From an uncultured Acidimicrobiales bacterium (GTDB lineage: Bacteria; Actinomycetota; Acidimicrobiia; Acidimicrobiales; SZUA-35), in assembly GCA_963803875.1 (NCBI GenBank), contig CAWDOA010000009.1, forward strand, positions 26,216-90,215: a stretch of DNA of 64,000 nucleotides. The letters run 5' to 3'. A program made the translations under genes and the position numbers. Below the pieces are notes generated by a model, which made no database searches, was not told where the DNA came from, and was given only the letters and a program-made list of their open reading frames with translations. Of the stretch, positions 3,530 to 54,095 are shown one piece after another (the stretch's first letter is position 1; each line of letters begins with the position of its first letter).

Positions 3530-6352
3530 GTGCTGACCCTCCCCAAACCACTACCCCCATCAGCCCCCGAGCCCGAGCAAACTCCTCGGGTCGTCGAGCA
3601 GTCCGGACCTACCCGCGAGTTTCTGAGCCGATTCGGTTCATGGGTCAGTTTTGCAGCGGCACTTGGCTGTGCCGTGTTCGTTTTATTTCAGCTTCGCCCC
3701 GACCTCGTTCTGGCCGACACAACACCCTCGGGTGGCGATATGGGTGCCCACGTGTGGGGCCCGGCGTATATGCGGGATCACCTGCTGACCCAGGGCCGGC
3801 TCACGGGTTGGACTCCGGACTGGTACGCCGGATTTCCGGCGTACCACTATTACATGATCGCCCCGCCCCTGGCGATCATCGCAATCAACGCTGGGCTGAA
3901 CCCGCTGATCGGCGTTCCCATGGCATTGGTCGCCATCGGCGCCGCCTGGTTGATCGCCGGTCACCGCACTGTGCAGGGCTCCGGATTCGCCGGATTGATC
4001 AAGATCGTCGGCACGATAGTGGCCGTCTCGCTGGTCTGGGTCCCATACGGCGTGGCCTTCAAGCTGGTATCTGTTGTCGGTTTGATTCTCATGCCACTGG
4101 CCGGCTGGGCGATGGCCAGATTGGCGAGGGCCGAAGAACCGGTTCCCGGTCTTGTTGCCGTGGGTGTAACCATCTTCTTGTTCGACACCAACTTCAACAT
4201 CTATGGCGGCAACATCGCGAGCACTCTGGCCGGTGAGTTCGCCTTTTCAATCAGCCTTGGGTTCGCTCTTCTCACGATCGGTTGGCTGTTCCGGATGCTC
4301 GACACCGGGCGGTGGCGAGCCTCCACCGCCGTGCTGCTGGCGCTCGTGGCCCTGACTCATGTGATCCCCCTGATATTCGTGATGTTCGTTTGCGCCATTT
4401 TGGTCGTGTTCTGGATCGACGCGCCACGGTGGTGGATTCTCGCAACGGGGATGGCGGCTGCTCTGGTGCCGGTCGGTCTCAACGAGGGTCTGGGAACGGC
4501 TCCACGCGTGGCGGCGCTCGTCACCCTGCCGATCGTAGTGGTTGCATTGGCCTCGATCTCGCCAGCGATCGTGGAACGCATCAAGTTATTGGCGATCGTG
4601 GGCCCCGTCGGCTCGCTCATCGCTGCAATCTGGCTGTTTCCGTTCTATATGAGGAGCAACCTCTTCAATGACATGGGCTGGGAGCGGCTGGACGACTACC
4701 TACCCGATCTTGTCAATACGCCGATGAGGATTGCGCTTCCGGTTGCCGGAGTTGGTGCACTGCTGTCGTTCGCATTCAAGGACCGACTAGGCATGTTGTT
4801 CTCGATTCTTGGGGTTGCGTGCGCCCTCGGTGTTGCAAACTTCCCTGACGGTAAGTTGTGGAACGCCAGAATCCTTCCCTTCTACTACCTGTCGGTGTAT
4901 CTCACCGCTGCGATCGGAATTGCCCTATTGGCTCGGGTGATCGGTACCGCAATCTCTGAACGGCTCAGCTCGCCGGATCCGGTGGTTACCTATGCCTTCG
5001 CTGCTCTCGCATTGGCGGCCTCCCTGATCGGTGTGACATTCACGCTTCAGGCGTTTCCCGAGCGCTTCGAGGGCGTCAGCGATGAAGGCAGCTACACCTT
5101 CCTGGGAATCGAAGGGGGAGAGAAGAGTTTCATACCCAGTTGGGTCCAGTGGAACTACAGCGGGTACGAAGAGAAACGTAGCTTTGCGGAGTATGCGGCG
5201 GTTGTGGATGCCATGGCTGAGATCGGGAACTCCAGGGGTTGTGGTCGGGCCATGTGGGAGTACAGCGCCGATCTTGATCGCTATGGAACCCCCATGGCGT
5301 TGATGCTGTTGCCGCACTGGACCGACGGTTGCATCGGATCCATGGAGGGTCTGTACTTTGAATCGTCGGCATCAACCCCGTTCCATTTCCTGAACCAGAG
5401 CATGCTCTCGGTTGGACCGTCACGGGCCCAGCGAGACTTGCCGTATCAGGATTTCAACATCGATCGGGGCGTCGTTCAGCTCCAGACCGTGGGGGTGCGT
5501 TACTACATGGCCCAGTCGGACGAAGCCATAGCTGCCGCCGATGACCACCCCGACCTGGATCGGATCATTGAGGCTCAGCCTTTCGTCATCTATGAGGTCG
5601 CAAATTCGACTTTGATCGAGGGGCTGGAGTTCGAGCCGGTTGTGGCCAGCGGCCCGACCGCAGAGAACGTCACCGAGGCCAGCACCAGGTTCGATGTCGG
5701 TTGGGAAAGCCAAGCTGTTGCGCATTACAACAACCCGGCGGGATTCCAGGCACTCCCGGCTGAGGATGGGCCGGATGAGTGGTTGCGCGTGAGCACGTTG
5801 GCCGGTTCCGATGGTGCTGCCGCGAGTCGGGCTCAAGTGTCGGACATCGAAGTGGGTCGCAATACGATCTCGTTTTCGGTTGACCAAGTCGGAACGCCGG
5901 TTCTGGTCAAAATGAGCTATTTCCCAAATTGGGAGGTCTCCGGTGCGGATGGTCCCTACCGGGCCGGCCCAAACCTCATGGTCGTCGTCCCCACCAAAAC
6001 CGCAGTCGAGATGAACTATGGCGACACCATGGTCGAATATGTGTCCTTCGTGCTGTTCGCTCTTGGCTGCGCAGGTGCGGTGTTTCTGGCCAGAGACGGA
6101 GCCTCATCTCGGTCGGCCAATGAAGCGGCAGGCACCACCGAACCGGATCAGATGCCGGACGCCCACGACGATGTCGACGAGCGAATCGAACCCGACTTGT
6201 TCGCCAAACTACTTGCCGAATCCGAGATGGAGAGTGGGCCGAACGTAGTGCCACCAGAGCCAGGTCCATCGATCTCAGAAGTCGGCCTGGCTGATCGGAT
6301 GCTCAGCGCGCTCGAGAACGATGAAATCAGGACAGAACAGGATCACGAGTGA
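3530..6352 (+). CDS. large polytopic membrane protein, putative GT-C-type glycosyltransferase
   Basis: 940-aa ORF. About 14 predicted TM helices in the N-terminal 480 aa, with a conserved early loop (GGDMGAHVWGP...GWTPDWYAGFP), followed by a roughly 400-aa soluble domain and a C-terminal TM helix. Family assignment rests on architecture and context only. Confidence 0.5.
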   Translation: MLTLPKPLPPSAPEPEQTPRVVEQSGPTREFLSRFGSWVSFAAALGCAVFVLFQLRPDLVLADTTPSGGDMGAHVWGPAYMRDHLLTQGRLTGWTPDWYAGFPAYHYYMIAPPLAIIAINAGLNPLIGVPMALVAIGAAWLIAGHRTVQGSGFAGLIKIVGTIVAVSLVWVPYGVAFKLVSVVGLILMPLAGWAMARLARAEEPVPGLVAVGVTIFLFDTNFNIYGGNIASTLAGEFAFSISLGFALLTIGWLFRMLDTGRWRASTAVLLALVALTHVIPLIFVMFVCAILVVFWIDAPRWWILATGMAAALVPVGLNEGLGTAPRVAALVTLPIVVVALASISPAIVERIKLLAIVGPVGSLIAAIWLFPFYMRSNLFNDMGWERLDDYLPDLVNTPMRIALPVAGVGALLSFAFKDRLGMLFSILGVACALGVANFPDGKLWNARILPFYYLSVYLTAAIGIALLARVIGTAISERLSSPDPVVTYAFAALALAASLIGVTFTLQAFPERFEGVSDEGSYTFLGIEGGEKSFIPSWVQWNYSGYEEKRSFAEYAAVVDAMAEIGNSRGCGRAMWEYSADLDRYGTPMALMLLPHWTDGCIGSMEGLYFESSASTPFHFLNQSMLSVGPSRAQRDLPYQDFNIDRGVVQLQTVGVRYYMAQSDEAIAAADDHPDLDRIIEAQPFVIYEVANSTLIEGLEFEPVVASGPTAENVTEASTRFDVGWESQAVAHYNNPAGFQALPAEDGPDEWLRVSTLAGSDGAAASRAQVSDIEVGRNTISFSVDQVGTPVLVKMSYFPNWEVSGADGPYRAGPNLMVVVPTKTAVEMNYGDTMVEYVSFVLFALGCAGAVFLARDGASSRSANEAAGTTEPDQMPDAHDDVDERIEPDLFAKLLAESEMESGPNVVPPEPGPSISEVGLADRMLSALENDEIRTEQDHE

Positions 6353-7620
6353 GGTCTCGGCTTCGTCGGTTCGCCCTCGTTGGCGTAGTAGCCACGGTGA
6401 TCGATATCGGAGTTTTCCTGTTCGTGGCAGATCGAGCCACTACCGCACCATTGTGGGCTCCAAACATCCTCGCTCTCGCCCTCGCTTCCACCTTCGCCTA
6501 TTTCGGCAATCGATTCTTCACCTTCGGCGCTGGGGATGACGCTCGTTGGGTCCGGCAGCCTGCATTGTTCTTCGCCACCGCAACGTTCGCAGCGGTGTTG
6601 GACACCGGTGTTCTGTATCTGGGCGGCACGGTCACCGGCAATTTGCTCGCCGCCAAGATCTCAGCGGTGGCGGTCGCAGCGGTGCTGAGGTGGGGTGTCT
6701 ATAGATGGATTCTCTTTGGCCGAGTCCGACGAGAGTTGGCTCTCCGGGTGAACCGGCCGGCGTCCACTGAGCCCTACCGGCTCTCAGTTGTGCTGCCTGC
6801 GTTCAATGAGGCGGGCAGGATCGCTCGCTCGATCGAAACGCTGCATGCGACGCTGGTGCCTGCGGTAGGTGCCGACAACCTTCAAGTGCTTGTGGTCGAC
6901 GACGGTTCGATCGACGACACGGCATCTGCTGCTCGGGCCGCCGGAGCCGATGTTCTGGTCCAACCCGAGAACAGGGGCAAGGGCGCTGCGGTAAGGGCCG
7001 GAATTATTGCGGCCAGCGGTCGATCGGTTGTGTTCACCGACGCCGATCTTGCCTATTCGCCATCGGTGATACTCGACATCATGAGGGAGATCGAGGCTGG
7101 TTGGGATGTGGCCGTTGGAAGTCGTCGCCACGAAGAAACAACGACCCTGGTGAAGGCGCGTTGGTTTCGTGAACTTGGCGGCCGCTTCGTCAACCGGCTG
7201 ACCCATCTCGTTCTCCTCGGGCACTTCCGCGATACCCAATGTGGCATCAAGGGGTTCCGTGGAGACATCGGTAGGGTCATGTTCGAGCGGTGTCGTATCG
7301 ACGGCTTTGCCTTTGACGTAGAACTGTTCCTGATAGCGGAACAGGATCGACTGTCGCTTACCGAGATTCCGGTCTCGGTAGAGAACCGCAAGGGATCAAA
7401 GGTGCGACTGATCCAAGACACAATCACCCTGTTCCGCGACCTCGTGAAGATTCGAAGGGCGGCCGGCTGGGGCTGGTACGTCCCTACCCCAGCTCAGCAA
7501 AAGATTCTGGAGCGACCGGCTGGGGCGACGCCTATAGGTGGGCGTCGCCGAACAGATCGTCGGGCCGCACGCGACGGCGAATCCATCGAACCGTCGTCCG
7601 CGAACATCTCTGGGTCCTAG
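6349..7620 (+). CDS. GtrA-like membrane domain fused to family-2 glycosyltransferase (polyprenyl-phosphate sugar synthase-like)
   Basis: N-terminal about 125 aa is GtrA-like (4 TM, FALVGVVATVIDIGVF...YFGNRFFTFG). C-terminal part is GT2 (SVVLPAFNE, VVDDGSIDDT, NRGKGAAV, FTDADL, DTQCGIKGF). Start overlaps the upstream stop (6349/6352). Confidence 0.8.
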   Translation: MRSRLRRFALVGVVATVIDIGVFLFVADRATTAPLWAPNILALALASTFAYFGNRFFTFGAGDDARWVRQPALFFATATFAAVLDTGVLYLGGTVTGNLLAAKISAVAVAAVLRWGVYRWILFGRVRRELALRVNRPASTEPYRLSVVLPAFNEAGRIARSIETLHATLVPAVGADNLQVLVVDDGSIDDTASAARAAGADVLVQPENRGKGAAVRAGIIAASGRSVVFTDADLAYSPSVILDIMREIEAGWDVAVGSRRHEETTTLVKARWFRELGGRFVNRLTHLVLLGHFRDTQCGIKGFRGDIGRVMFERCRIDGFAFDVELFLIAEQDRLSLTEIPVSVENRKGSKVRLIQDTITLFRDLVKIRRAAGWGWYVPTPAQQKILERPAGATPIGGRRRTDRRAARDGESIEPSSANISGS

Positions 7621-7629
7621 ATTGGTGGC

Positions 7630-8991
7630 GTGAAAGACCTTTCAGCAATCGTCAAGGCATACGACGTCCGCGGAACCTTCCCCGATCAGATCGACGCAGA
7701 AACCTGCCTAGCTCTCGGAGTCGGTTTCGCAGAGTTCATCAAATCGGCCGAGCCGACTACAGAAGAGATAGTCATCGCTCACGACATGCGCCCCTCGGGC
7801 CCCGAACTCGTGGCCGCGTTCACTCAGGGAGTGAACCGACAGGGTCTCGGTGTTGTGAACATCGGCTTGGCGTCGACCGACATGATGTACTTTGCCTCGG
7901 GTTCGGAGAACAAACCCGGTGTCATGTTCACCGCCTCCCACAATCCCGCTCAGTACAACGGAATCAAAGTGTGCAAATCGGGGGCAGCACCCATCGGGCA
8001 AGACACAGGTCTCGGAGCCATGCGGGAAGGCGCAGAAGCCTACTGGCGGGGTGAGATCGAAGCCGCGGATTCACCGGGGACTTCTGGCACCGCAGAGATG
8101 CTCGATGCCTTCGCTCAGCACGTTCTGAGTTTCATCGCTGCCGATGGGCTCAGGCCGCTCAAGGTCGTGGCTGATACTGCGAACGGCATGGGTGGATATG
8201 TGGTGCCCGAGGTCTTCAAGCATCTGCCGTTCGATTTGGAGATCATGTATCCCGAACTCGACGGCACGTTTCCCAATCACCCTGCTGACCCTATTCAGGT
8301 AGAGAACTTGGCTGACCTGCGGGCCCGGGTCACCGAGGTCGGCGCAGACATCGGGTTGGCCTTCGATGGCGACGCCGACCGCGTCTTTTTGGTGGATGAA
8401 CGAGGTGAACCGGTCAGCGGATCGCTGACCACTGCGCTGCTGGCTAGAGCCACGTTGGCTACCACCCCGGGGGCAAAGGTCATCTACAACCTCATCTGTT
8501 CCGATGTCGTGCCCGAGGTCGTATCAGAGAATGGCGGAATCCCGATCCGCAGCCGGGTCGGCCACAGTTTCATCAAGCAGATCATGGCCGATGAGGGAGC
8601 CGAGTTCGGCGGCGAGCACAGTGCTCACTACTACTTCGCCAAGAATTGGCGGGCGGACAGTGGGCTGATAGCCGCCGTGATGGTGCTCGCCGAACTCAGC
8701 GCCAGCGGCGGCACGCTCAGCCAGTTGCTTGATCCGTTCAAGCGATACAGCGCTTCGGGAGAAATCAACACCCGTGTCAAGGACGCACAGGCGGTGATAG
8801 ACGCCGTGAAGCAGCACTACGCAGGATCTCAGCAGGACGAGCTCGATGGTCTGACGGTTCGCAACGACCGATGGTGGTTCAATCTACGTGCCTCCAACAC
8901 AGAACCGTTGCTGCGACTCAACCTCGAAGCTGCCGACGACGATGCGGTCGCTGCCCACGTGGCCGAGGTGCAGTCGGTCATGGTTCTCTGA
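7630..8991 (+). CDS. manB: phosphomannomutase/phosphoglucomutase
   Basis: 453 aa. Active-site Ser loop TASHNPAQYNGIK and metal loop FDGDADRVF. Confidence 0.9.
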   Translation: MKDLSAIVKAYDVRGTFPDQIDAETCLALGVGFAEFIKSAEPTTEEIVIAHDMRPSGPELVAAFTQGVNRQGLGVVNIGLASTDMMYFASGSENKPGVMFTASHNPAQYNGIKVCKSGAAPIGQDTGLGAMREGAEAYWRGEIEAADSPGTSGTAEMLDAFAQHVLSFIAADGLRPLKVVADTANGMGGYVVPEVFKHLPFDLEIMYPELDGTFPNHPADPIQVENLADLRARVTEVGADIGLAFDGDADRVFLVDERGEPVSGSLTTALLARATLATTPGAKVIYNLICSDVVPEVVSENGGIPIRSRVGHSFIKQIMADEGAEFGGEHSAHYYFAKNWRADSGLIAAVMVLAELSASGGTLSQLLDPFKRYSASGEINTRVKDAQAVIDAVKQHYAGSQQDELDGLTVRNDRWWFNLRASNTEPLLRLNLEAADDDAVAAHVAEVQSVMVL

Positions 8992-35867: not shown

Positions 35868-36239
35868 GGGGCTGATCGGTTTCGACGTCGAGACCAGAAG
35901 CTGTTTGTGCGACCCGAGTTGCTCAGACTCGTGAAACGGGGCTTTTTGAAGACGGCAACAAAACCGACTTCGCTCTTGCCGCCTAATTTTTTAGGTAGTA
36001 CAGAGGAAAACTGCGAGCCGCGAGGCCACGCAGGGCCTGACCACTACAGCCCGGTAACAGAAGTAGTGGTGGACGGTGGGAGAGACCACTGACGGACAGG
36101 GAAAGACTTCTGACACCGAGGAAAGACTCGGCGGTGAACTAACCCGGTAGATGGACAGCCGTAAGTCCGAACCACGGGAATGGTCGTAGCAGAAGCAGTA
36201 CCTGCTCGGCGGACGGGGGTTCGATTCCCCCCAGCTCCA
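35868..36239 (+). ncRNA. ssrA: tmRNA (SsrA)
   Basis: 5' GGGGCTGATCGGTTTCGAC pairs with 3' CAGCTCC, including the G3:U wobble (alanine identity). T-arm GGGGGTTCGATTCCCCC and discriminator A are present; CCA is not fully encoded. Internal tag ORF ...GAC GGC AAC AAA ACC GAC TTC GCT CTT GCC GCC TAA (35951-35986). Confidence 0.95.
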
Positions 36240-36244
36240 CGTAG

Positions 36245-46354: not shown

Positions 46355-47020
46355 TCAGGGGAGTGTCCAATCGATCGGCCCGCGCCCGCCTGCGCTCAAT
46401 AGCTCGTTGGTGCGGCTGAAGGGCCGAGATCCGAAGAAACCGCGGGATGCCGAAAGCGGGCTTGGATGCGGTGAAGTCACAACCGCATGCTGGTCGAGAT
46501 CGAGTCGAACCATTTTCTGCTGAGCTGACGCGCCCCACAGAATGAACACCACCCGGTCAGATTTGGCGTTCACCACGTCGATGACCGCGTCGGTGAACTG
46601 CTCCCAGCCTTGGCGCCGATGGGAGTTCGCTTGACCGGCCCGAACGGTCAGGACAGTGTTGATCAGAAGCACGCCTTGACGGGCCCACGGGATGAGCGAA
46701 CCTGACGTGGGTGAAGGGATCTCAAGATCCGACGACAGCTCCCGAAAGACGTTCTTGAGCGAGGGTGGTGGCGGTGTCGGCGGCTTCACAGAGAAGCACA
46801 GGCCGTGAGCTTGACCGGGACCGTGATAGGGGTCCTGGCCAAGAATCACGGCTCGAACCGAACTCAGCGGTGTGAGGTGCAGCGCGGAAAACACTTCATT
46901 GTGGGGTGGATACACCGGGCCCTGTTGTCTCTCCGACGCCACGAACTCCTGCAGCGGTGCCCAATAGGGCTTTGCGAATTCACTTCGGAGGACGGGGTTC
47001 CAGTCCGTTCTTGGTGCCAC
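46355..47020 (-). CDS. ung: uracil-DNA glycosylase (family 1)
   Basis: GQDPYHGPGQAHGLCFSV and HPSPLSA motifs. Confidence 0.93.
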   Translation of the reverse strand: MAPRTDWNPVLRSEFAKPYWAPLQEFVASERQQGPVYPPHNEVFSALHLTPLSSVRAVILGQDPYHGPGQAHGLCFSVKPPTPPPPSLKNVFRELSSDLEIPSPTSGSLIPWARQGVLLINTVLTVRAGQANSHRRQGWEQFTDAVIDVVNAKSDRVVFILWGASAQQKMVRLDLDQHAVVTSPHPSPLSASRGFFGSRPFSRTNELLSAGGRGPIDWTLP

Positions 47021-47053
47021 CTACCCGTTCTATCCGAACAGTACGATCCGTCG

Positions 47054-48334
47054 GTGCGCTGTTCCCCGGTTCCTCACGTCGGCGCATCGCTTTCCCGCTG
47101 GGTAATGGCAATAGCCCTTTCAAGTGCCGTCGCTTGCTCGGCGGGTTCAGCGCCGGATCAAGCCGTTGCATCAAGCGGGCTCGGTGAACCAGTGGCCGCT
47201 ACCCCCACCTCGGCTCCTGTAACCACGTCACTCCCATCCACGACGACAACGACTCAAGCCTCGACAACCACAACCGATCCGGTTCGTGCCCTGCTGGAGA
47301 CGATGACTCTTCAGGACAAGATTGGTCAAATTCTCATGCCGGTGGTGCGAGGCACTGGTGTCGACAGGGTGACCGGTGCCGACGTGGCGTACAACACAGC
47401 GCTCGGGGGCTTTGGGACCCCGGCGGAGTTGGTGTCGGCCTATCGTCTCGGTGGGATCATGTATCTGGGTCCCAACGTGGAATCACCGACCCAAATCAAA
47501 GAATTCAGTGACGGGTTGCAGGAAGTTGCGGCTGAGAACGGACTGCCGCCTCTCCTGGTGGCGGCAGATCAGGAGGGCGGCAGGGTCCGTCGAATCCGAG
47601 GTGAAGGTGTCACCGTCGTTGGTTCCGCCAGATCACTGGCCGGCGACGCCACAGCCGTGTTCGAGAACGCCAGTCTGACCGGCCAGGAGATGAGAGCGAT
47701 TGGCATAAACGTAGTATTCGCCCCGGTCGCCGATGTGGTTCGGTCCGATGTCGGGGTGATCGGCAACCGTTCATACGGATCGGACTCAGCGCTCGTAGCT
47801 GAGATGGTCGCGGCATCGGTGGAAGGGTTGCGGAATGGCGGAGTTGCTGCGGTCGCCAAGCACTGGCCCGGACACGGAGCCACCGAGGTTGACAGTCACA
47901 AGGCGCTGCCGATTGTTGAATCGACTGAGGAGGAATGGCGAACCACAGATCTTCCGCCGTTCGTGGCAGCAGTGAAGGCCGACGTGAATGCGTTGATGGT
48001 GGGTCACCTGGCTCTCCCAAGCCTCGGTGTTTTGGAACCCGCTACGATTTCCCCCAAGCTCACCGGGGACCTCATACGCACCGAGCTGGGTTTCGACGGC
48101 GTGCTCTTCACCGATGCGATGGACATGAGAGCTCTTGATGGCATCGACGAGGCCGAGTTGGCGGTACTCGTCTTGGAAGCCGGAATCGACATCCAGTTGG
48201 TCCCTCCTGATCTCGTGGCATCCGTCTCCGGAATCTCCCGAGCCGTTTCCACGGGCCGCATCAAGGAGGAACGCCTCGACGCAAGTGTCGCAAGAATCCT
48301 GATTATGAAACGGGATCTTGGGTTGATCGACTGA
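47054..48334 (+). CDS. glycoside hydrolase family 3 beta-N-acetylhexosaminidase-like lipoprotein
   Basis: KHWPGHG and GH3 N-terminal domain pattern. Start placed at GTG 47054 to give a signal peptide with lipobox (...WVMAIALSSAVAC); ATG 47105 is an alternative. The ORF-track start 46805 would overlap ung. Confidence 0.75.
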   Translation: MRCSPVPHVGASLSRWVMAIALSSAVACSAGSAPDQAVASSGLGEPVAATPTSAPVTTSLPSTTTTTQASTTTTDPVRALLETMTLQDKIGQILMPVVRGTGVDRVTGADVAYNTALGGFGTPAELVSAYRLGGIMYLGPNVESPTQIKEFSDGLQEVAAENGLPPLLVAADQEGGRVRRIRGEGVTVVGSARSLAGDATAVFENASLTGQEMRAIGINVVFAPVADVVRSDVGVIGNRSYGSDSALVAEMVAASVEGLRNGGVAAVAKHWPGHGATEVDSHKALPIVESTEEEWRTTDLPPFVAAVKADVNALMVGHLALPSLGVLEPATISPKLTGDLIRTELGFDGVLFTDAMDMRALDGIDEAELAVLVLEAGIDIQLVPPDLVASVSGISRAVSTGRIKEERLDASVARILIMKRDLGLID

Positions 48335-48344
48335 AGGTGTGGAC

Positions 48345-49019
48345 TTAGGCGACCGGTAGTGCAGTGATCACCTGGTTTCCTCGATAGCTCTTCGCAAATC
48401 GATCGAATGATCCTCCGCAGGTGACCAGGTGGAGAGCGTGGGGCCCGCCTGACCGGAAGAGCTCATCGGCGGGAAGTTCGGTCTTGTCATAGAGCACGAC
48501 CGATAGAACTGCATAGTCGGCGTGGGTGCCATCGGCGAGTTCCAAGTGAATCAGGTCTCCGACGGTTGCGAGCCGAAGGTTGTAGAACAGCCCCGGTTGA
48601 CCCCCGTAGTCGACGTGGGCTGCGATGACGGTGGCCCCCGGTGTCTCCGGTGTCGACGAGTGCCGATACCAACCAGCTGCCTGCGCAAACGGGACGTCGA
48701 GTTGGAGATCAGCAGCGATGCCGACAGCTTCCACCGGTCCATCGATATCGATTTCAGAGACCGAAATCCTCACGGGAGCAGGCCCTGTGCCCTGCTCGAT
48801 CAACGCATTCGCTGACCTCCGACGTGGGACGTGTACTGCGATGGTTTCGCGGTGAGACGGTGTTTGGAACCAAAGCTCGAGCGGTTGAGCAGCAACAGCC
48901 TGACGCACCTCAGCGCTCAGGGATCCTCCCGGGATCGTGGTCGACGGAGCAACGAGTAGTGCACCTGCGGTTGCCACATACACAGCGGCGAAGTGGCGAG
49001 TCCGGAGCCGCTTTCCCAC
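48345..49019 (-). CDS. class F sortase
   Basis: 224 aa. N-terminal TM anchor, catalytic His (VIAAHVDYGG), TLxTC-type Cys (LHLVTCGGSF), Arg near the C-terminus (YRGNQVI). Start abuts the upstream stop (49019/49020). Confidence 0.8.
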   Translation of the reverse strand: MGKRLRTRHFAAVYVATAGALLVAPSTTIPGGSLSAEVRQAVAAQPLELWFQTPSHRETIAVHVPRRRSANALIEQGTGPAPVRISVSEIDIDGPVEAVGIAADLQLDVPFAQAAGWYRHSSTPETPGATVIAAHVDYGGQPGLFYNLRLATVGDLIHLELADGTHADYAVLSVVLYDKTELPADELFRSGGPHALHLVTCGGSFDRFAKSYRGNQVITALPVA

Positions 49020-50993
49020 TCAGCGTCGACCCTGTCGAACAAATCGCTCGCGACCAACGAGCGCAAAGAAACCAAGTGCTCCGGCCGCAGCGACGAGCAG
49101 ACCCGTCGTCGGATCCTCAGACCCGGGCAGGAGCCCGCTCGCTCCCGTGGGAATGCCAGTGGGCGGTGTTCCGAGGCCACCGATTCGCTGCAGGATCAAT
49201 CGCGGGGATCCGTCGCGCAGGAACGTCGCTGCCGTCACCTCACCTTCGGTGTTTGAAACAACCGTGGCGAGCAGCGGGGATCCGTCCTCTTCGGTGATGA
49301 AGAGCTGGTAGTCCCCGGTTGGGAGATCGCGGGATAGAACTGCGCCGGGCGCAATGGCCTGCCGTTGCACGGACGCACCCTCGGTCACAGGATCGAGAGT
49401 CACCAGAATCGTAGAAGGTGAGGGATTACGGACCGAAAACCGACCCTCTCCAGCAGCGATGGGACCCAGCGCGTCCGGGAAGCTGAAAAGGGTGACGCCC
49501 CCGGCGCCGGCGCTGGCAACGACCAGCGCTTCGGGTTCACCGGTAATCTGCACTTCCTGGGCCAGCAGAACGTCATCGGTTCGATCAGCGGCCAAGACCG
49601 TAGGGTTCTCAACCGCGGAGAACAGTTGTAGGTCGTAATCGCCCGAGTCCAGGCTAAGCGGGCCGGCGATCTCTCCCGGTGCGAAACCGCCGACGAGGAG
49701 GTCTCCGTTGAGGTAGGCGTCGACAGAGGGTTCGCTGAGTCCATGGATAATCTCGAGCCCTGCCTCAGAAGCAGGAACCGATGGTACTTCAGGCGGCGAA
49801 GGGACTGTCGTGGAAGGGACTGTCGTGGAAGGGGCTGTCGTGGAAGGGGCTGTCGTGGTGGTGGGCTCCGTAGTCACAGCAGTGCTCGACGTGTCAGTGG
49901 TGGTTACAGTTCCGGTCGACGCTGTAGTGGTGGAGGTGTCGACAGTGGTTTCGGTTGTGGTCGACGACGTCGGCGAAGTGGCAGTGGTGGTGGTGGCCGA
50001 CTCTCCGTTGCCGCTTGTGGCTGCGCCCCACAAACCGATCCCGATCACTCCAGCGAGCCCTGCTCCAACCAGCCATGGAAGCGCCCGACCCAAAACGCCC
50101 CGGCTCGCTTCAGCTGGAGCCGATACGGCAGCGGAAGTGGCTCTGGCGGCAACGACCGGGGGCACAGTGGTCTCGATCGCAGGCGCTGCGCCGAACAAGG
50201 GCGAGTCGGCGAAGCCCATCGGCGCGTAGGAGCGCATGACCCCAACACCCGCCGCACTCAGTCGCTCGGCCAAAACCCTGGCGGTGGAAATCCGTTCGCC
50301 TACCTCCTCCGCAGTCGCATCGGCAACGATCGCTACAATCTCGGCAGGTGTGTTCGGATCTCTGGCCGTACCGGCCTCGAGTAGGCGACCGAGGCTATAG
50401 ACATCTCCGGGAACGGTCGGAACTCCCGAAAGAGCGACTTCGGGGGCCATCGGGAGCCCGCTTTCGGGTGTGCCGCCAAGGCTCAATCCCATGCCCGCTA
50501 CTGCAATTTCTGATCCGGCGACGATCACGTCACTGGGCTGTAGCGCTCCGTGTCGAAGGCCAAGCGAGTGGCCTTTCTCGACTGCGAGGGTTGCTGCGAG
50601 AGCGACGCCTGCACCTTCGTTCCAGTTGGGTGGTGTCCGAAAGTCAAGCCGCTCTTGGAATCGGGGGGCATCGGTTCGTAAGGACACAGCGGTTGTCTCA
50701 CCCTTGAGGTCCTTGGTCACCGAGGCGATCGGAACCAGGCCACTGGTGTCGCGATCCTGGGTTGGAACTGTGAGAAGTAGGCGGTCTACGTGGTCTTGAC
50801 TCCAGCGTCCCGGCGGCACGGTCTGCACTGTGACCGGCGCTCGATCGTCGGGGGTGCCCGTACGGGGAGCTGCCACGCCATCGGCACGCCGGTACCCAAA
50901 CCATGGCTCGATCTCGACCAGATCGGCCACTTCGAGGTCGACCCCACCCCCTTCTGTGTTTTTGCGCTCCATTGGCTGGGCACTCCCGTCCAC
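49020..50993 (-). CDS. pseudokinase - TM - Thr/Pro linker - DUF4397-like repeats - C-terminal sortase sorting signal
   Basis: 657 aa. The N-terminal about 250 aa is collinear with Ser/Thr kinase subdomains but degenerate (LRHGALQPSDVIV for HRDLKPxN, VAGMGLS for DFG; MAPE and DVYSLG retained). Then TM LPWLVGAGLAGVIGIGLWGAA, a T/S/P-rich linker and two DUF4397-like modules. The tail is ...EDPTTG-LLVAAAGALGFFALVG-RERFVRQGRR. Confidence 0.7.
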   Translation of the reverse strand: MDGSAQPMERKNTEGGGVDLEVADLVEIEPWFGYRRADGVAAPRTGTPDDRAPVTVQTVPPGRWSQDHVDRLLLTVPTQDRDTSGLVPIASVTKDLKGETTAVSLRTDAPRFQERLDFRTPPNWNEGAGVALAATLAVEKGHSLGLRHGALQPSDVIVAGSEIAVAGMGLSLGGTPESGLPMAPEVALSGVPTVPGDVYSLGRLLEAGTARDPNTPAEIVAIVADATAEEVGERISTARVLAERLSAAGVGVMRSYAPMGFADSPLFGAAPAIETTVPPVVAARATSAAVSAPAEASRGVLGRALPWLVGAGLAGVIGIGLWGAATSGNGESATTTTATSPTSSTTTETTVDTSTTTASTGTVTTTDTSSTAVTTEPTTTTAPSTTAPSTTVPSTTVPSPPEVPSVPASEAGLEIIHGLSEPSVDAYLNGDLLVGGFAPGEIAGPLSLDSGDYDLQLFSAVENPTVLAADRTDDVLLAQEVQITGEPEALVVASAGAGGVTLFSFPDALGPIAAGEGRFSVRNPSPSTILVTLDPVTEGASVQRQAIAPGAVLSRDLPTGDYQLFITEEDGSPLLATVVSNTEGEVTAATFLRDGSPRLILQRIGGLGTPPTGIPTGASGLLPGSEDPTTGLLVAAAGALGFFALVGRERFVRQGRR

Positions 50994-51207
50994 ACCTCGC
51001 CTAACAACCTCTCAGAGTACATAGGAAACCGATACCACTCTCAGAGGCGAATCAACTCATGGAGTGGGATGTGGATCTTGTATTGCTCAGAAGCTCGTGA
51101 AGACACCGTTGGCTGCACGCAACGGCGTCGGTGGAGTTTGCGCGAGCCATTGGTCACAGTGGTAGTGTTGGACTTCGCGTCCACGATCTTAAAGGGGAAA
51201 GAAACGC

Positions 51208-52401
51208 ATGGCACAGGTAGTTCTCAAAGATGTCAACAAGGTTTATCCAAACGGCTATCACGCCATCATCGATCTGAACCTCGACATTGCTGATGGTGAG
51301 TTTCTTGTCCTCGTCGGCCCGTCGGGCTGTGGCAAGTCGACAGCCCTGCGTATGGTCGCCGGTTTGGAAGAAATCAGCGGTGGTGAGATGTACATCGGTG
51401 ACCGGATGGTCAACGACGTTCACCCCAAGGATCGCGACATCGCGATGGTCTTTCAGAACTACGCGCTCTACCCGCACATGACCGTGGCCGACAACATCGG
51501 CTTTGCGCTCAAACTGGCCAAAGTGCCCAAGCCCGAGATCGAAGAGCGTGTCCGCAAGGCCGCAGCTGTATTGGATCTAACCGAAAACCTCGACCGCAAG
51601 CCTGGCCAGCTCTCCGGCGGTCAGCGCCAGCGTGTGGCAATGGGACGAGCCATTGTTCGTCAGCCCAAAGCGTTCCTCATGGACGAGCCCCTCTCCAATC
51701 TCGACGCCAAGTTGCGGGTCCAGATGCGTGCCGAAATCGCCGGCCTGCAACGGGACCTGGGTGTCACCACCCTCTACGTCACGCACGATCAGGTGGAAGC
51801 CATGACAATGGGGGATCGCGTTGCTGTGCTCAAGCGCGGCTGGCTCCAGCAGGTGGACTCACCTCAGAATCTCTATGACAAGCCAGCCAATGTGTTTGTA
51901 GCCGGGTTCATTGGCTCCCCGTCGATGAACCTCATGGCATCTCGGATCGAAGGAGCCGGATCGGATCTCAAGGTCCATATCGGTAGCAACACCCTGGATC
52001 TCGATGCAGCCCTCGTTGCTGCGAATCCCGGCCTCGCAGACTTCGTCGGAAAAGACATCGTTGTTGGTGTTCGGCCAGAGGATCTCGCCGATGCCGAATT
52101 GGCCACCTCTCCGGTGCCCCAAGGAAGGACCATCACCAGCGAAACCACCCTCGTCGAAGCGTTGGGTTCGGAGATCATCGTCCACTTCCCGCTCGATGCA
52201 GAACCCTTCGCGATCATGGATGCTGAGTTCGAAGGCGAAGATGCCGTAGAACAGGCCAAGGACGATCAGGGTCGCACGATCTACGTCGCCCGATTGAGCC
52301 CTCGATCGCAAGCTCGTATGGGCGCTCGTCTTACCCTCAACGTCGACACGTCCAGGATGCACTTCTTCGACCCGCAAACGGGCCTGGCAATTCGCGGCTA
52401 A
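51208..52401 (+). CDS. sugar ABC transporter ATP-binding protein (MsiK/UgpC/MalK-like), stand-alone
   Basis: Walker A GPSGCGKST, LSGGQRQR, FLMDEPLSNLD, C-terminal TOBE/MalK regulatory domain. RBS AAAGGGGAAAG lies upstream. Confidence 0.9.
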   Translation: MAQVVLKDVNKVYPNGYHAIIDLNLDIADGEFLVLVGPSGCGKSTALRMVAGLEEISGGEMYIGDRMVNDVHPKDRDIAMVFQNYALYPHMTVADNIGFALKLAKVPKPEIEERVRKAAAVLDLTENLDRKPGQLSGGQRQRVAMGRAIVRQPKAFLMDEPLSNLDAKLRVQMRAEIAGLQRDLGVTTLYVTHDQVEAMTMGDRVAVLKRGWLQQVDSPQNLYDKPANVFVAGFIGSPSMNLMASRIEGAGSDLKVHIGSNTLDLDAALVAANPGLADFVGKDIVVGVRPEDLADAELATSPVPQGRTITSETTLVEALGSEIIVHFPLDAEPFAIMDAEFEGEDAVEQAKDDQGRTIYVARLSPRSQARMGARLTLNVDTSRMHFFDPQTGLAIRG

Positions 52402-52775
52402 TGGATGATGAGGCGACGGGCGTAAAGCTCGGACGCCTTGTCCGCAGAGCTCGCAACAAGTCATCTGAAACGAGCCTTGGTCTTAGGTCCAGGGCTCGTT
52501 CTGCATGGCGGGGAGGCGACAACAACCAATCACCCCGGATCGGTCGCGATAGCGCACCAGGCAGCGGCTCAGCCGAGGACTCATCGTTGGACGATTCCAT
52601 CGTGGTAGATATCGAGCTGAGTGACGCCTTGGCTCGCGCCGAGTACGCTGAAGCCGAGAACGAGCGGTTACGGTCAGAGCTCGAGCGCAAGGAAGATATC
52701 CTGGCCGAAGCAGGTATTGCGCTTCGAACCGCACGGCTTGCGCTGCGGGATCACCTGCGAATCACCCAGCGGTAG
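52401..52775 (+). CDS. hypothetical protein
   Basis: 124-aa ORF, start overlaps the upstream stop (TAATG). Low-complexity N-terminal half, helical C-terminal half (AEYAEAENERLRSELERKEDILAE). No family recognised. Confidence 0.35.
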   Translation: MDDEATGVKLGRLVRRARNKSSETSLGLRSRARSAWRGGDNNQSPRIGRDSAPGSGSAEDSSLDDSIVVDIELSDALARAEYAEAENERLRSELERKEDILAEAGIALRTARLALRDHLRITQR

Positions 52776-52817
52776 CCCCTAGGCTAGTGGCCGACCAAAC
52801 CAGGACAGAAAGGTCCC

Positions 52818-54095
52818 TTGCGAACCATCGCCCCGCTGCTTGGCCCACCCGACGTCACCGTTCGGATTCCGGGCTCAAAGAGCCACACCAACAGAGCGCT
52901 CATATGTGCTGCACTGGCGCCTGGAACCTCAGGCTTGGAAGGTGCGCTCTTCGCCGACGACACGATCGCCATGGTCGGGTCGTTGTTGAGTCTCGGACTG
53001 GCGGTTTGGGCTGACCCGGCCGGCCGCACAATCACCGTGATGAATCCTGATGGTTCAATTCCAGCGGGCCCCGCTGACCTCGACGTAGGAATGTCGGGCA
53101 CCACCAGCCGTTTCTTGCTTCCCGTGTTGTGCCTGGGGCAGGGTCCTTACCGGATGGATGGGGCCTATCAACTTCGGAATCGGCCGATCGCCGAGCTTGT
53201 TTCGAAACTGCGTGCGCTGGGTGCGACTATAGATGGGGATTCGTTGCCGCTTACCGTGCACGGAGGTGGGCTAAGCGGGGGTTCGGTGGTTGTACAGGGC
53301 TCGGTATCCAGTCAGTACTTGTCGGGCCTTCTCATGGCGGCACCGCGGACCAGTTCTGGACTCTATGTCCGGGTTGCGGGCGAATTGGTGTCCAAGCCCT
53401 ACGTTGAGTTGACGATCAAGACAATGGAGAAGTTCGGTGTTCGCGTTGATGTGGACCCCTCCTACCGTGAGTTCACCGTGCCGCCGGCTAACTACCGTCC
53501 CACCACCATCGCGATAGAACCAGACGCTTCGGCCGCGAGCTACTTCTTCGCCGCCGCTGCGATCACCGGTGGTCGCGTAAAGGTTGAGGGCCTTGGGTCC
53601 ACGACAACCCAAGGCGACCTAGGTTTTGTCCACTTGCTTCAACGAATGGGCGCTCGTGTCACGATGACAGCAGACAGTACCGAGGTCCGGGGGACCGGCG
53701 AACTGCATGGCATCAAAGTCGATATGCGCGATATCTCCGATACCGCTCAGACCCTCGCCATCGTCGCAACATTCGCCGATTCGCCGACTGAAATCACTGG
53801 TATTGGCTTCATCCGCCGAAAGGAAACAGATCGAATCGGCGCTGTAGTCAGTGAATTGTCGCGGCGGGGAATTCAAGCCGAGGAGATGCCTGAGGGCCTG
53901 ATCATCCATCCCGGGAACGCCAGGCCGGGAGTTGTGACCACCTACGAGGACCACCGAATGGCGATGAGTTTCGCATTGCTCGGCCTCAAACATCCCGGGA
54001 TCCAGATTCGCGACCCTGAGTGTGTCGCCAAGACTTTCCCAGATTTCTTCGACGTACTGGAAACTCTCCGGCCCGAGTCCGTCGGGATGGGTTGA
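52818..54095 (+). CDS. aroA: 3-phosphoshikimate 1-carboxyvinyltransferase (EPSP synthase)
   Basis: 425 aa. PGSKSHTNRALI, and RPI/ELV...LGA pattern across both domains. Confidence 0.93.
   Translation: MRTIAPLLGPPDVTVRIPGSKSHTNRALICAALAPGTSGLEGALFADDTIAMVGSLLSLGLAVWADPAGRTITVMNPDGSIPAGPADLDVGMSGTTSRFLLPVLCLGQGPYRMDGAYQLRNRPIAELVSKLRALGATIDGDSLPLTVHGGGLSGGSVVVQGSVSSQYLSGLLMAAPRTSSGLYVRVAGELVSKPYVELTIKTMEKFGVRVDVDPSYREFTVPPANYRPTTIAIEPDASAASYFFAAAAITGGRVKVEGLGSTTTQGDLGFVHLLQRMGARVTMTADSTEVRGTGELHGIKVDMRDISDTAQTLAIVATFADSPTEITGIGFIRRKETDRIGAVVSELSRRGIQAEEMPEGLIIHPGNARPGVVTTYEDHRMAMSFALLGLKHPGIQIRDPECVAKTFPDFFDVLETLRPESVGMG

What the first reader, a model, noticed from the sequence alone, without database searches (positions are those of the whole stretch)
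48345..50993. Class F sortase adjacent to a pseudokinase-TM-DUF4397 protein that carries BOTH an N-terminal membrane anchor and a C-terminal sorting signal
The 657-aa protein has these parts:
- No signal peptide.
- An N-terminal region of about 250 aa collinear with Hanks-type kinase subdomains but lacking catalytic residues. HGALQPSD replaces HRDLKPxN, AGMG replaces DFG, and no VAIK lysine is present; MAPE and DVYSLG are retained.
- One TM helix.
- A Thr/Ser/Pro-rich linker.
- Two DUF4397-like modules.
- A tripartite sorting signal: EDPTTG, then the hydrophobic LLVAAAGALGFFALVG, then RERFVRQGRR.

The sorting pentapeptide is non-canonical (DPTTG rather than LPxTG; an LPGSE lies 6 aa upstream). 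The sortase ATG (49019) abuts the substrate stop (49020).

If processed, the ectodomain would be covalently attached to peptidoglycan while still tethered through the membrane to a cytoplasmic pseudokinase. That would be a covalent wall-to-cytoplasm link. I am not aware of this having been described for sortase substrates.
Basis: partly seen in the sequence, partly recalled or inferred. Interest (0 to 1): 0.65.

Follow-up and report, generated by a model that had tools for sequence, protein, structure and literature searches.

The report
Sortase paired with wall-tethered transmembrane pseudokinase
A membrane-spanning dead kinase with a surface domain is always encoded next to its own sortase and carries a conserved, non-standard sorting signal, so it is probably glued to the cell wall while still anchored in the membrane, and the same signal marks likely substrates of the poorly understood class F sortases.

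Summary
Both genes are real. The large protein is a cytoplasmic kinase-fold domain without catalytic residues, followed by TM1, an 86-aa Thr/Ser/Pro linker and two beta-sandwich modules (the first is DUF4397). It ends in an unstructured tail, a hydrophobic helix and a basic tail. The small protein is a class-F-like sortase with the catalytic His and Cys.

Two details in the finding are wrong. The sorting motif is not DPTTG or LPGSE, which are not conserved. It is P-x-x-[IV]-P-[TS]-G-[DN]-S-x-L-L (PTGIPTGASGLL, residues 611-622). The sortase starts with GTG, not ATG.

In 27 of 27 loci with a complete homologue, all Acidimicrobiia-type MAGs and down to 28% identity, the sortase gene follows directly. 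All members are pseudokinases and all carry the signal.

Related class F sortases elsewhere sit behind ordinary secreted DUF4397, fasciclin or Excalibur proteins that end in the same extended signal. The cassette is therefore general, and this lineage replaced the signal peptide with a pseudokinase, a TM helix and a long tether.

Cleavage, peptidoglycan attachment and double anchoring are inferred, not shown. I rate it a new variant of a known kind, with interest about 0.7.

The parts
49020..50993 (-). Gene for the pseudokinase-TM-linker-DUF4397-sorting-signal precursor (657 aa from GTG 50993; probably 650 aa from ATG 50972)
   Evidence: ORF list. Sequence around the start. 11 close homologues. 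27 loci with a complete homologue.
50208..50936 (-). Cytoplasmic pseudokinase domain (residues ~20-262). HGALQPSD at 50529-50552 replaces HRDxKPxN.
   Evidence: Profile against PDB. AF2 model pLDDT 91. Foldseek kinase and pseudokinase hits. hhalign against PknB. Degenerate motifs across the whole family.
50016..50084 (-). TM1, signal-anchor helix (residues 304-326, ALPWLVGAGLAGVIGIGLWGAAT)
   Evidence: Hydropathy. Basic residues precede it and acidic or polar residues follow it in all members. Coordinates.
49764..50015 (-). Extracytoplasmic low-complexity Thr/Ser/Pro linker (residues 327-410), the proposed tether
   Evidence: Composition 70% T/S/P. An 81-142 aa linker is present in all scored pseudokinase-type members and absent from the signal-peptide-type relatives read.
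49476..49760 (-). Ecto module 1, DUF4397 beta-sandwich (residues 412-506)
   Evidence: Pfam PF14344 45 bits. AF2. Foldseek matches the PepT1/2 extracellular domain.
49179..49448 (-). Ecto module 2, second beta-sandwich (residues 516-605), a diverged DUF4397-like repeat
   Evidence: AF2. No Pfam hit of its own. Weak repeat signal. Short homologues give two Pfam DUF4397 stretches.
49128..49163 (-). Conserved sorting motif PTGIPTGASGLL (residues 611-622). The predicted scissile bond is T616|G617.
   Evidence: Alignments. Consensus from 50 unique signals. Unstructured and low pLDDT in the AF2 model. Unique in the window.
49053..49100 (-). C-terminal hydrophobic segment of the sorting signal (residues 632-647)
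   Evidence: Hydropathy. AF2 helix 628-655. Coordinates.
49023..49052 (-). Positively charged tail RERFVRQGRR (residues 648-657). The stop codon is at 49020-49022.
48345..49019 (-). Class-F-like sortase gene. GTG start abuts the upstream stop. N-terminal membrane anchor at residues 9-27 (48939-48995). Catalytic His135 at 48615-48617 and Cys201 at 48417-48419.
   Evidence: Pfam and NCBIfam. Junction. Family alignment with invariant H135 and C201. These align to the catalytic His and Cys of class C sortases in PDB. Homologues named class F sortase.

Best explanation
This is a two-gene cassette, probably co-translated, of a dedicated class-F-type sortase and its single substrate.

**Topology (inferred from sequence).** The substrate inserts with its N-terminal pseudokinase in the cytoplasm. 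TM1 acts as an uncleaved signal-anchor. About 300 residues lie outside the membrane: a disordered Thr/Ser/Pro tether and two Ig-like DUF4397 modules. The C-terminal hydrophobic segment and basic tail act as stop-transfer.

**Processing (inferred).** The membrane-anchored sortase recognises the extended signal P-x-x-[IV]-P-[TS]-G-[DN]-S-x-L-L in the unstructured tail. It cleaves after Thr616 through Cys201 and passes the Thr carboxyl to an amino group of the peptidoglycan precursor.

**Product (inferred).** TM1 remains, so the mature protein would be fixed at both ends: amide-linked to the wall outside and carrying a catalytically dead kinase scaffold inside. The 80-140 residue tether provides slack.

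**What is shown.** Anatomy, folds, loss of catalytic residues, conservation of the pair and of the signal, and homology to ordinary sortase-cassette substrates.

**What is not shown.** Cleavage, the nucleophile, persistence of TM1, and any signalling role of the pseudokinase.
For: - **Gene pair.** The sortase gene lies immediately downstream in 27/27 loci with a complete homologue, mostly with a 4-bp overlap, down to 28% identity. This holds in L002, where the rest of the context differs. In the window the spacer is 0 nt.
- **Signal.** 50 unique signals share a consensus. Positions +2 to +6 were not imposed by my search pattern, yet S occurs in 45/50 at +3 and L in 46/50 at +5. The distance from the motif to the C-terminus is a constant 33-45 aa.
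- **Same cassette elsewhere.** Related class F sortases follow DUF4397, fasciclin or Excalibur genes that end in the same signal; the examples read in full have cleavable signal peptides. Among the 148 best 50%-identity representatives I examined, 59 signal-peptide-type and 13 pseudokinase-type proteins carry both the motif and a sorting-signal C-terminus.
- **Accessibility.** The motif lies in a low-confidence, structure-free stretch between the last strand and the terminal helix.
- **Sortase.** His135 and Cys201 are invariant and an N-terminal anchor is present.
- **Pseudokinase.** Shown.
- **Tether.** A long disordered ecto-linker is seen only in the TM-anchored version. That fits both ends being fixed.
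- **TM1 cleavage site.** No conserved A-x-A-type site follows TM1.
Against: - There are no experimental data of any kind, and every member found here is from a MAG or metagenome contig.
- The motif is not LPXTG, and the only characterised class F sortase (P. acnes SrtF) is reported to use LPXTG.
- The spacer between motif and hydrophobic segment is 14 aa. From my recollection of classic signals, that is on the long side.
- The sortase scores below the NCBIfam class F cutoff.
- Its catalytic Arg cannot be placed with confidence. R, K or H sits at Cys+9, and R213 is not conserved.
- The nucleophile is unknown. Hydrolysis, or transfer to something other than peptidoglycan, would give a singly anchored product.
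- An AF2 docking test of motif into sortase could not be run.
Confidence: 0.6

Rival explanations
1. The sortase cleaves the signal, but the product is not attached to peptidoglycan. The acyl-enzyme is resolved by water, so the sortase acts as a maturation protease that removes the second membrane anchor. Alternatively it is resolved by a lysine of another protein or by a non-peptidoglycan acceptor. The mature protein is then an ordinary single-pass receptor-like pseudokinase or part of a surface polymer.
For: All evidence for a dedicated sortase-substrate pair fits this equally. The physiological acceptor of class F sortases is unknown, and a quadruple srtF deletion in Actinoplanes had no phenotype. 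The ecto modules are Ig-like, as pilins are.
Against: From general knowledge of sortases, the housekeeping and SrtB types characterised so far transfer to lipid II. I did not look for a pilin-type lysine motif. Polymerisation is hard to reconcile with an N-terminal membrane anchor. The conserved 80-140 aa tether is best explained if the outer end is fixed.
Confidence: 0.2
2. No processing occurs. The C-terminal hydrophobic segment is simply a second transmembrane helix of a two-pass membrane protein, and the neighbouring sortase acts on other proteins.
For: The motif is not canonical, and the two-helix N-in/C-in topology is viable by itself.
Against: A motif is conserved just outside the helix across 50 unique sequences. 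The same C-terminal module sits on otherwise soluble secreted proteins that are also encoded directly upstream of related sortases. Adjacency holds in 27/27 loci, mostly with overlapping stop and start. No other candidate substrate lies in the window.
Confidence: 0.08
3. The N-terminal anchor does not persist. After, or coupled to, wall attachment the protein is cut at or near TM1 by signal peptidase or regulated intramembrane proteolysis, as happens with anti-sigma factors. This releases the pseudokinase into the cytoplasm as a signal and leaves a purely wall-bound ectodomain.
For: Related cassettes sit beside an ECF sigma and anti-sigma pair (L041, L045). The kinase-TM-ectodomain architecture resembles single-pass signalling proteins.
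Against: No conserved A-x-A-type site follows TM1. Nothing in the data points to a protease. The conserved long tether would serve no purpose if the anchor were removed at once.
Confidence: 0.1
4. The architecture is an assembly or gene-calling artefact that fuses a separate kinase-like gene to a DUF4397 gene.
For: None beyond the unusual architecture.
Against: The reading frame is uninterrupted in the window. The same collinear architecture occurs in 27 independent loci and in 13 complete 50%-identity representatives.
Confidence: 0.01

Closest known systems
Class F sortases (NCBIfam NF033748; P. acnes SrtF is the only one characterised)
   Same: Sortase fold, invariant His and Cys (LVTCGG), N-terminal membrane anchor and actinobacterial origin. 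Class F is the best-scoring class model, and NCBI names the homologues class F sortase.
   Different: It scores 118 bits against a cutoff of 166. It is encoded with one dedicated substrate. The associated signal is P-x-x-[VI]-x-[TSA]-G-[NDT]-S-[GN]-L rather than the LPXTG reported for SrtF.
Dedicated sortase-substrate operons with non-LPXTG signals (SrtB-IsdC NPQTN; the S. pyogenes pilus sortase with QVPTG/EVPTG pilins; recalled from memory)
   Same: One sortase is encoded beside its own substrate. The motif has V-P-T-G at its core, followed by a hydrophobic segment and a basic tail.
   Different: The sortase class differs. I did not look for pilin or haem-uptake features. The conserved positions extend both upstream (P at -5) and downstream ([DN]-S-x-L-L). 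The substrate keeps an N-terminal membrane anchor and has a cytoplasmic domain.
Short DUF4397, fasciclin or Excalibur proteins encoded upstream of related class F sortases (found here: L041, L042, L045, L062, L074, L078, L079, L087, L088, L112, L114, L127)
   Same: The same sortase family lies directly downstream. They carry the same extended C-terminal signal, and the DUF4397 ones have the same two-module ectodomain.
   Different: They have a cleavable signal peptide, no cytoplasmic domain and no long linker. Their product would be a conventional wall-anchored protein.
Hanks-type receptor kinases of Gram-positives (PknB, StkP with PASTA domains)
   Same: Kinase-fold domain, juxtamembrane linker, single TM helix and an extracellular wall-associated domain. 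They are also the best sequence matches of the N-terminal domain.
   Different: All catalytic residues are lost in every family member. The ectodomain is DUF4397, not PASTA. Wall contact is predicted to be covalent rather than ligand binding.
Membrane-associated bacterial pseudokinase domains such as that of M. tuberculosis MviN/MurJ (recalled from memory), and eukaryotic pseudokinases KSR1 and HER3 (the top structural matches)
   Same: A kinase fold without catalytic residues, presumably acting as a scaffold.
   Different: Sequence relationship is limited to the shared fold. None is known to be a sortase substrate.
Braun's lipoprotein Lpp of Gram-negative bacteria (a functional analogy only; recalled from memory)
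   Same: One end is embedded in a membrane and the other end is covalently joined to peptidoglycan.
   Different: The membrane, enzymes (L,D-transpeptidases), anchor type and size all differ, and Lpp has no cytoplasmic domain.

Membership tests
Sortase (PF04203), class F | Sortase domain detectable by profile | tested here: met
   PF04203 E 4.2e-14, 52.8 bits against a cutoff of 26.6.
Sortase (PF04203), class F | Catalytic His and Cys (TLxTC-like motif) | tested here: met
   H135 (AAHVD) and C201 (LVTCGG) are invariant in 20 sequences. They align to the His and Cys of class C sortase structures.
Sortase (PF04203), class F | Catalytic Arg downstream of the Cys | tested here: inconclusive
   R, K or H sits at Cys+9 in most sequences. 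R213 is not conserved. The PDB alignments stop at the Cys.
Sortase (PF04203), class F | Score at or above the NCBIfam class F cutoff | tested here: not met
   NF033748 gives 118.3 bits against a cutoff of 166. It is still by far the best class, ahead of class GN at 20.9 and class E at 16.7. NCBI names 60-65% identical homologues class F sortase.
Sortase (PF04203), class F | N-terminal membrane anchor with an extracytoplasmic catalytic domain | tested here: met
   A hydrophobic segment at residues 9-27 follows a basic N-terminus.
Sortase substrate (cell-wall sorting signal) | C-terminal hydrophobic segment followed by a positively charged tail | tested here: met
   Residues 632-647 followed by RERFVRQGRR. 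Conserved in all homologues.
Sortase substrate (cell-wall sorting signal) | Canonical LPXTG pentapeptide | tested here: not met
   There is no LPXTG. DPTTG and LPGSE are not conserved.
Sortase substrate (cell-wall sorting signal) | A conserved LPXTG-like motif ending in T/S-G shortly before the hydrophobic segment | tested here: met
   PxxIPTG at 611-617. The consensus comes from 50 unique signals, and the motif lies in an unstructured tail.
Sortase substrate (cell-wall sorting signal) | N-terminal cleavable signal peptide | tested here: not met
   The N-terminus is hydrophilic, and the first hydrophobic segment is at 304-326 after a folded kinase-like domain. This is what sets the family apart.
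Sortase substrate (cell-wall sorting signal) | Cleavage at the motif and covalent linkage to peptidoglycan | not testable with these tools
   This needs biochemistry.
Hanks-type protein kinase (Pkinase) | Bilobal protein-kinase fold | tested here: met
   AF2 pLDDT 91. Foldseek matches KSR1, PknG, PknB and HER3 with TM-scores 0.57-0.67 at E 1e-11 to 1e-9. Profile hits to StkP and PknB.
Hanks-type protein kinase (Pkinase) | Pfam Pkinase match above threshold | tested here: not met
   No Pkinase hit even at E <= 1.
Hanks-type protein kinase (Pkinase) | Catalytic residues: VAIK Lys, HRD Asp, catalytic-loop Asn, DFG Asp | tested here: not met
   VTVQ, HGALQPSD and AGMG take their places, and the residues are degenerate in every family member. 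It is a pseudokinase.
DUF4397 (PF14344) | Pfam match above the gathering score | tested here: met
   45.3 bits against 30.6 for residues 412-528. The second module has no hit of its own but is a beta-sandwich in the model.

The most novel reading that the evidence does not exclude
After sortase processing the protein stays in the membrane through TM1 and is amide-linked to peptidoglycan through Thr616. This would make a continuous covalent chain from the wall, across the membrane, to a cytoplasmic pseudokinase. As the wall grows, turns over or is strained, the 80-140 residue tether would transmit position or tension to the pseudokinase scaffold. It would then be a physically wall-coupled sensor, a kind of device not described for bacteria. 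The shared signal P-x-x-[VI]-x-T-G-[ND]-S-G-L would also define the long-sought natural substrates of a large branch of class F sortases.
Probability: 0.3. Interest if true: 0.85.

Novelty: new variant of a known kind. Interest (0 to 1): 0.7.

Why it matters
Class F sortases are widespread in Actinobacteria, but their physiological role is unknown. Only one enzyme has been characterised, and deleting all four in Actinoplanes gave no phenotype.

This locus and its relatives give a concrete, testable answer for one branch. Each sortase has a substrate encoded directly upstream, and the recognition signal is extended and non-LPXTG.

The Acidimicrobiia version adds something I could not find described: a predicted sortase substrate that keeps a membrane anchor and a cytoplasmic pseudokinase domain. 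If it is processed as predicted, it would be a covalent wall-membrane-cytoplasm connection in a monoderm bacterium. That bears on how cells sense or organise their wall. The new motif could also be useful for sortase-based protein ligation.

Tried and rejected
- **DPTTG or LPGSE as the sorting pentapeptide.** Rejected. DPTTG varies freely among homologues. LPGS exists only in the window's clade, and the other clade has LLGMDED.
- **Fusion or assembly artefact.** Rejected.
- **Active-kinase relatives in the family.** None found. All members have a degenerate HRD motif.
- **Other substrates or sortases in the window.** None.
- **Single-sequence search of the sortase against PDB.** No hit. Only the family profile reached class C sortases.
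- **Internal repeat test of the two ecto modules.** Only weak similarity (hhalign E 0.006 over 34 columns).
- **Promoter and terminator scan of 48200-51300.** Nothing above chance.
- **Conserved neighbours beyond the pair.** Only vertical synteny (aroA and a MalK-like ABC ATPase upstream) and no functionally telling partner. Many BLAST clusters were shadow ORFs of this GC-rich DNA.
- **Literature.** I searched for class F sortase, DUF4397, sortase with pseudokinase, and doubly anchored LPXTG proteins. No prior description turned up. The library is incomplete, so this is not proof of novelty.
Full report
**1. What is at the coordinates**

Two ORFs lie head to tail on the minus strand. One is 657 aa (49020..50993) and the other is 224 aa (48345..49019). 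The upstream gene ends ...CAG GGT CGA CGC TGA and the next triplet, GTG at 49019-49017, opens the downstream ORF. The two genes therefore abut with no spacer. The upstream gene probably starts at ATG 50972 (M8), preceded by GGGAG. The 98%-identical homologue P0001 begins at that position.

**2. The small protein is a sortase**

- Pfam gives Sortase at E 4e-14.
- NCBIfam's best model is class F sortase at 118 bits. This is far above the class GN and class E models but below the curated cutoff of 166.
- NCBI names 60-65% identical homologues 'class F sortase'.
- A 20-sequence alignment shows invariant His135 (AAHVD) and Cys201 (LVTCGG).
- With the family profile, these residues align to the catalytic His and Cys of solved class C sortases.
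- The catalytic Arg cannot be placed with certainty.
- A basic N-terminus followed by a hydrophobic stretch (residues 9-27) gives the usual membrane anchor.

**3. The large protein, part by part**

*Residues ~20-262: a protein-kinase fold.*
- Pfam sees nothing here.
- A profile of nine family members against PDB returns only protein kinases, led by StkP, PknB, PknE, PknA and PknI at E 6e-8 to 1e-4.
- The AlphaFold2 model is confident (pLDDT 91, pTM 0.88).
- Foldseek matches KSR1, PknG, PknB and HER3 at E 1e-11 to 1e-9.
- hhalign against the PknB kinase domain gives 96% probability over 226 columns.
- In that alignment VAVK becomes VTVQ and HRDVKPAN becomes HGALQPSD. The DFG region is AGMG. APE and DVYSLG are retained.
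- The same degeneracy holds in every family member, so this is a pseudokinase family.

*Residues 304-326: a hydrophobic helix.* Basic residues precede it and acidic or polar residues follow it.

*Residues 327-410: a linker.* It is 70% Thr, Ser and Pro.

*Residues ~412-605: two beta-sandwich modules.*
- The model of the C-terminal 259 aa has pLDDT 86.
- The first module is Pfam DUF4397. The second has no Pfam hit and only weak similarity to the first.
- The pair resembles the tandem Ig-like extracellular domain of PepT1 and PepT2.

*Residues 606-657: the C-terminal signal.*
- Residues 606-627 have low confidence and no secondary structure.
- Residues 628-655 form a helix that covers the hydrophobic segment 632-647 and the basic tail.

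**4. The sorting motif**

The invariant residues lie further upstream.

With 27 species-level relatives from genome assemblies, the pattern is [AP]-P-x-x-[VI]-P-[TS]-G-[DN]-S-x-L-L. An acidic spacer of about 10 aa, about 20 hydrophobic residues and an Arg-rich tail follow.

In the window this is PTGIPTGASGLL (611-622), which predicts cleavage between T616 and G617. The extended motif occurs once in all six frames of the window. No other ORF there has a sorting-signal-like C-terminus.

**5. The pair is conserved**

Every locus with a complete homologue of the large protein has a sortase gene immediately downstream, mostly overlapping by 4 bp. That is 27 of 27, covering the window, L001-L005, L007-L028 and L030, with identity down to 28%. 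It includes L002, whose other neighbours differ. All sources are Acidimicrobiales, Acidimicrobiia or unclassified Actinomycetota MAGs.

**6. The cassette is general; the pseudokinase is the novelty**

- More distant class F sortases follow a gene for a short secreted protein; those read in full have an ordinary signal peptide. They come from Cryobacterium fucosi, Kitasatospora and many metagenome contigs.
- That protein is DUF4397, fasciclin, Excalibur or an unassigned type. It ends in the same signal. Examples are NPGSIPAGEAGL, APAAVNTGNS, PTAVNTGDTGL, DPAGVPTGNSGL and SPTGVSAGNSGV.
- Fifty unique signals give this consensus:

| Position | Residues (count of 50) |
|---|---|
| -5 | P |
| -4, -3 | variable |
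| -2 | V 39, I 11 |
| -1 | P 37, D 6, N 5, S 2 |
| 0 | T 38, S 7, A 5 |
| +1 | G |
| +2 | N 23, D 18, T 6 |
| +3 | S 45 |
| +4 | G 34, N 13 |
| +5 | L 46 |
| +6 | L 32, A 14 |

- The distance from the motif to the C-terminus is 33-45 residues.
- My search pattern fixed P, V/I, T/S/A and G. Positions +2 to +6 were free, so their conservation is independent evidence.
- An exhaustive profile search of 1.84 billion representatives found 63 proteins at E <= 1e-30. Among the 148 best that I examined, 13 complete pseudokinase-type and 59 signal-peptide-type proteins had both motif and signal. Most of the signal-peptide type that I inspected are about 270 aa.
- Other DUF4397 proteins end in what look like SLH-type wall-binding repeats. 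This also places the module at the wall.

**7. How it most likely works**

- *Shown.* The anatomy, the folds, loss of kinase catalytic residues, conservation of pair and signal, and homology of the ectodomain and signal to ordinary cassette substrates.
- *Inferred from established sortase biology.* The precursor inserts N-in/C-in with the ectodomain outside. The sortase cleaves after T616 and transfers it to the peptidoglycan precursor.
- *Inferred from this family.* TM1 stays. No conserved signal-peptidase-type site follows it. A disordered ecto-linker of 81-142 aa is present in all scored pseudokinase-type members and absent from the signal-peptide-type relatives read. Slack of that kind is needed only if both ends are fixed.
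- *Predicted product.* A pseudokinase scaffold in the cytoplasm joined covalently, through the membrane and a tether, to the wall.
- *Unknown.* What the pseudokinase binds or reports.

**8. Rivals**

- Cleavage without peptidoglycan attachment (0.2).
- Loss of the N-terminal anchor by proteolysis (0.1).
- No processing at all (0.08).
- An assembly or gene-calling artefact (0.01).

**9. Comparison with known systems and novelty**

Dedicated sortase-substrate operons, non-LPXTG motifs, class F sortases, receptor-type Hanks kinases and bacterial pseudokinases are each known. I found no paper that links class F sortases to DUF4397, to this signal, or to a substrate with a cytoplasmic domain. Recent work still calls the class F role unknown. 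The literature library is incomplete, so prior knowledge, for example in annotation rules, cannot be excluded. I rate it a new variant of a known kind.

**10. Verdict**

Interest is 0.7. It offers a defined substrate and motif for an orphan sortase class, and a plausible covalent wall-to-cytoplasm link.

Noticed in passing
window 35868-36240 (+): A tmRNA gene (ARAGORN; Rfam RF00023 at 90.8 bits). ARAGORN's predicted tag peptide, ASREATQGLTTTAR, does not end in the usual ...LAA. That may be lineage-specific or a mis-set resume codon.
   Followed up: no
window 46805-48334 (+): A 509-aa ORF; the gene at the same position in relatives L001/L003 carries PF00933 (glycoside hydrolase family 3). It has an N-terminal hydrophobic, lipobox-like segment and a Thr-rich linker. 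It converges on the sortase gene with only 10 bp between the two stops. This synteny is kept in L001 and L003 but not in L002. It may be a wall-turnover enzyme, but no functional link was tested.
   Followed up: partly
L041 4145-7116; L045 8652-9913; L044 5991-8763 and L126 3925-6676: In related cassettes the sortase is followed by regulators. Cryobacterium has an ECF sigma factor and an RskA-type anti-sigma factor. L045 has an ECF sigma and a zf-HC2 anti-sigma about 3 kb away. Kitasatospora has an unknown protein followed by a response regulator and a HAMP histidine kinase. This hints that the cassettes belong to envelope-stress circuits.
   Followed up: no
proteins P0150, P0169, P0171: Some DUF4397 proteins end in what look like SLH-type wall-binding repeats (...GITVGKGDGTYGPNESVTRGQMATFLARALG) instead of a sortase signal. 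I judged this by eye, not by a profile. The same surface module would then be attached to the wall by different means in different lineages.
   Followed up: partly
L112 3150-3827, L113 1799-2485; L044 4617-4997, L126 2629-2997: Variant signals occur next to related sortases. Excalibur-domain proteins end in KP[SA]GGVDTGGGD. Small Kitasatospora proteins of 122-126 aa end in VP[RK]GGAQTGEGT. Here the V/I position is G or A and the spacing to the upstream Pro shifts by one.
   Followed up: partly
window 51208-54095 (+), with matching genes in L001, L003 and many of L009-L030: The pair sits at a conserved chromosomal position next to a MalK-like ABC ATPase, a small ORF and aroA (EPSP synthase) across much of the order. 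This suggests vertical inheritance rather than mobility.
   Followed up: partly
sortase residues 65-67 (window ~48819-48827) and alignment A4: An invariant Arg (R67), with a nearly invariant Pro two residues before it (V-P-x-R-[SDN]), lies in the otherwise variable linker between the sortase membrane anchor and its catalytic domain. Its role is unknown. It could be a lid-like or substrate-contact element.
   Followed up: no
L014 5875-8443: In this MAG the homologue is split into two overlapping ORFs (5875-7293 and 6662-8443). This is probably a frameshift or sequencing error. The sortase still follows.
   Followed up: no
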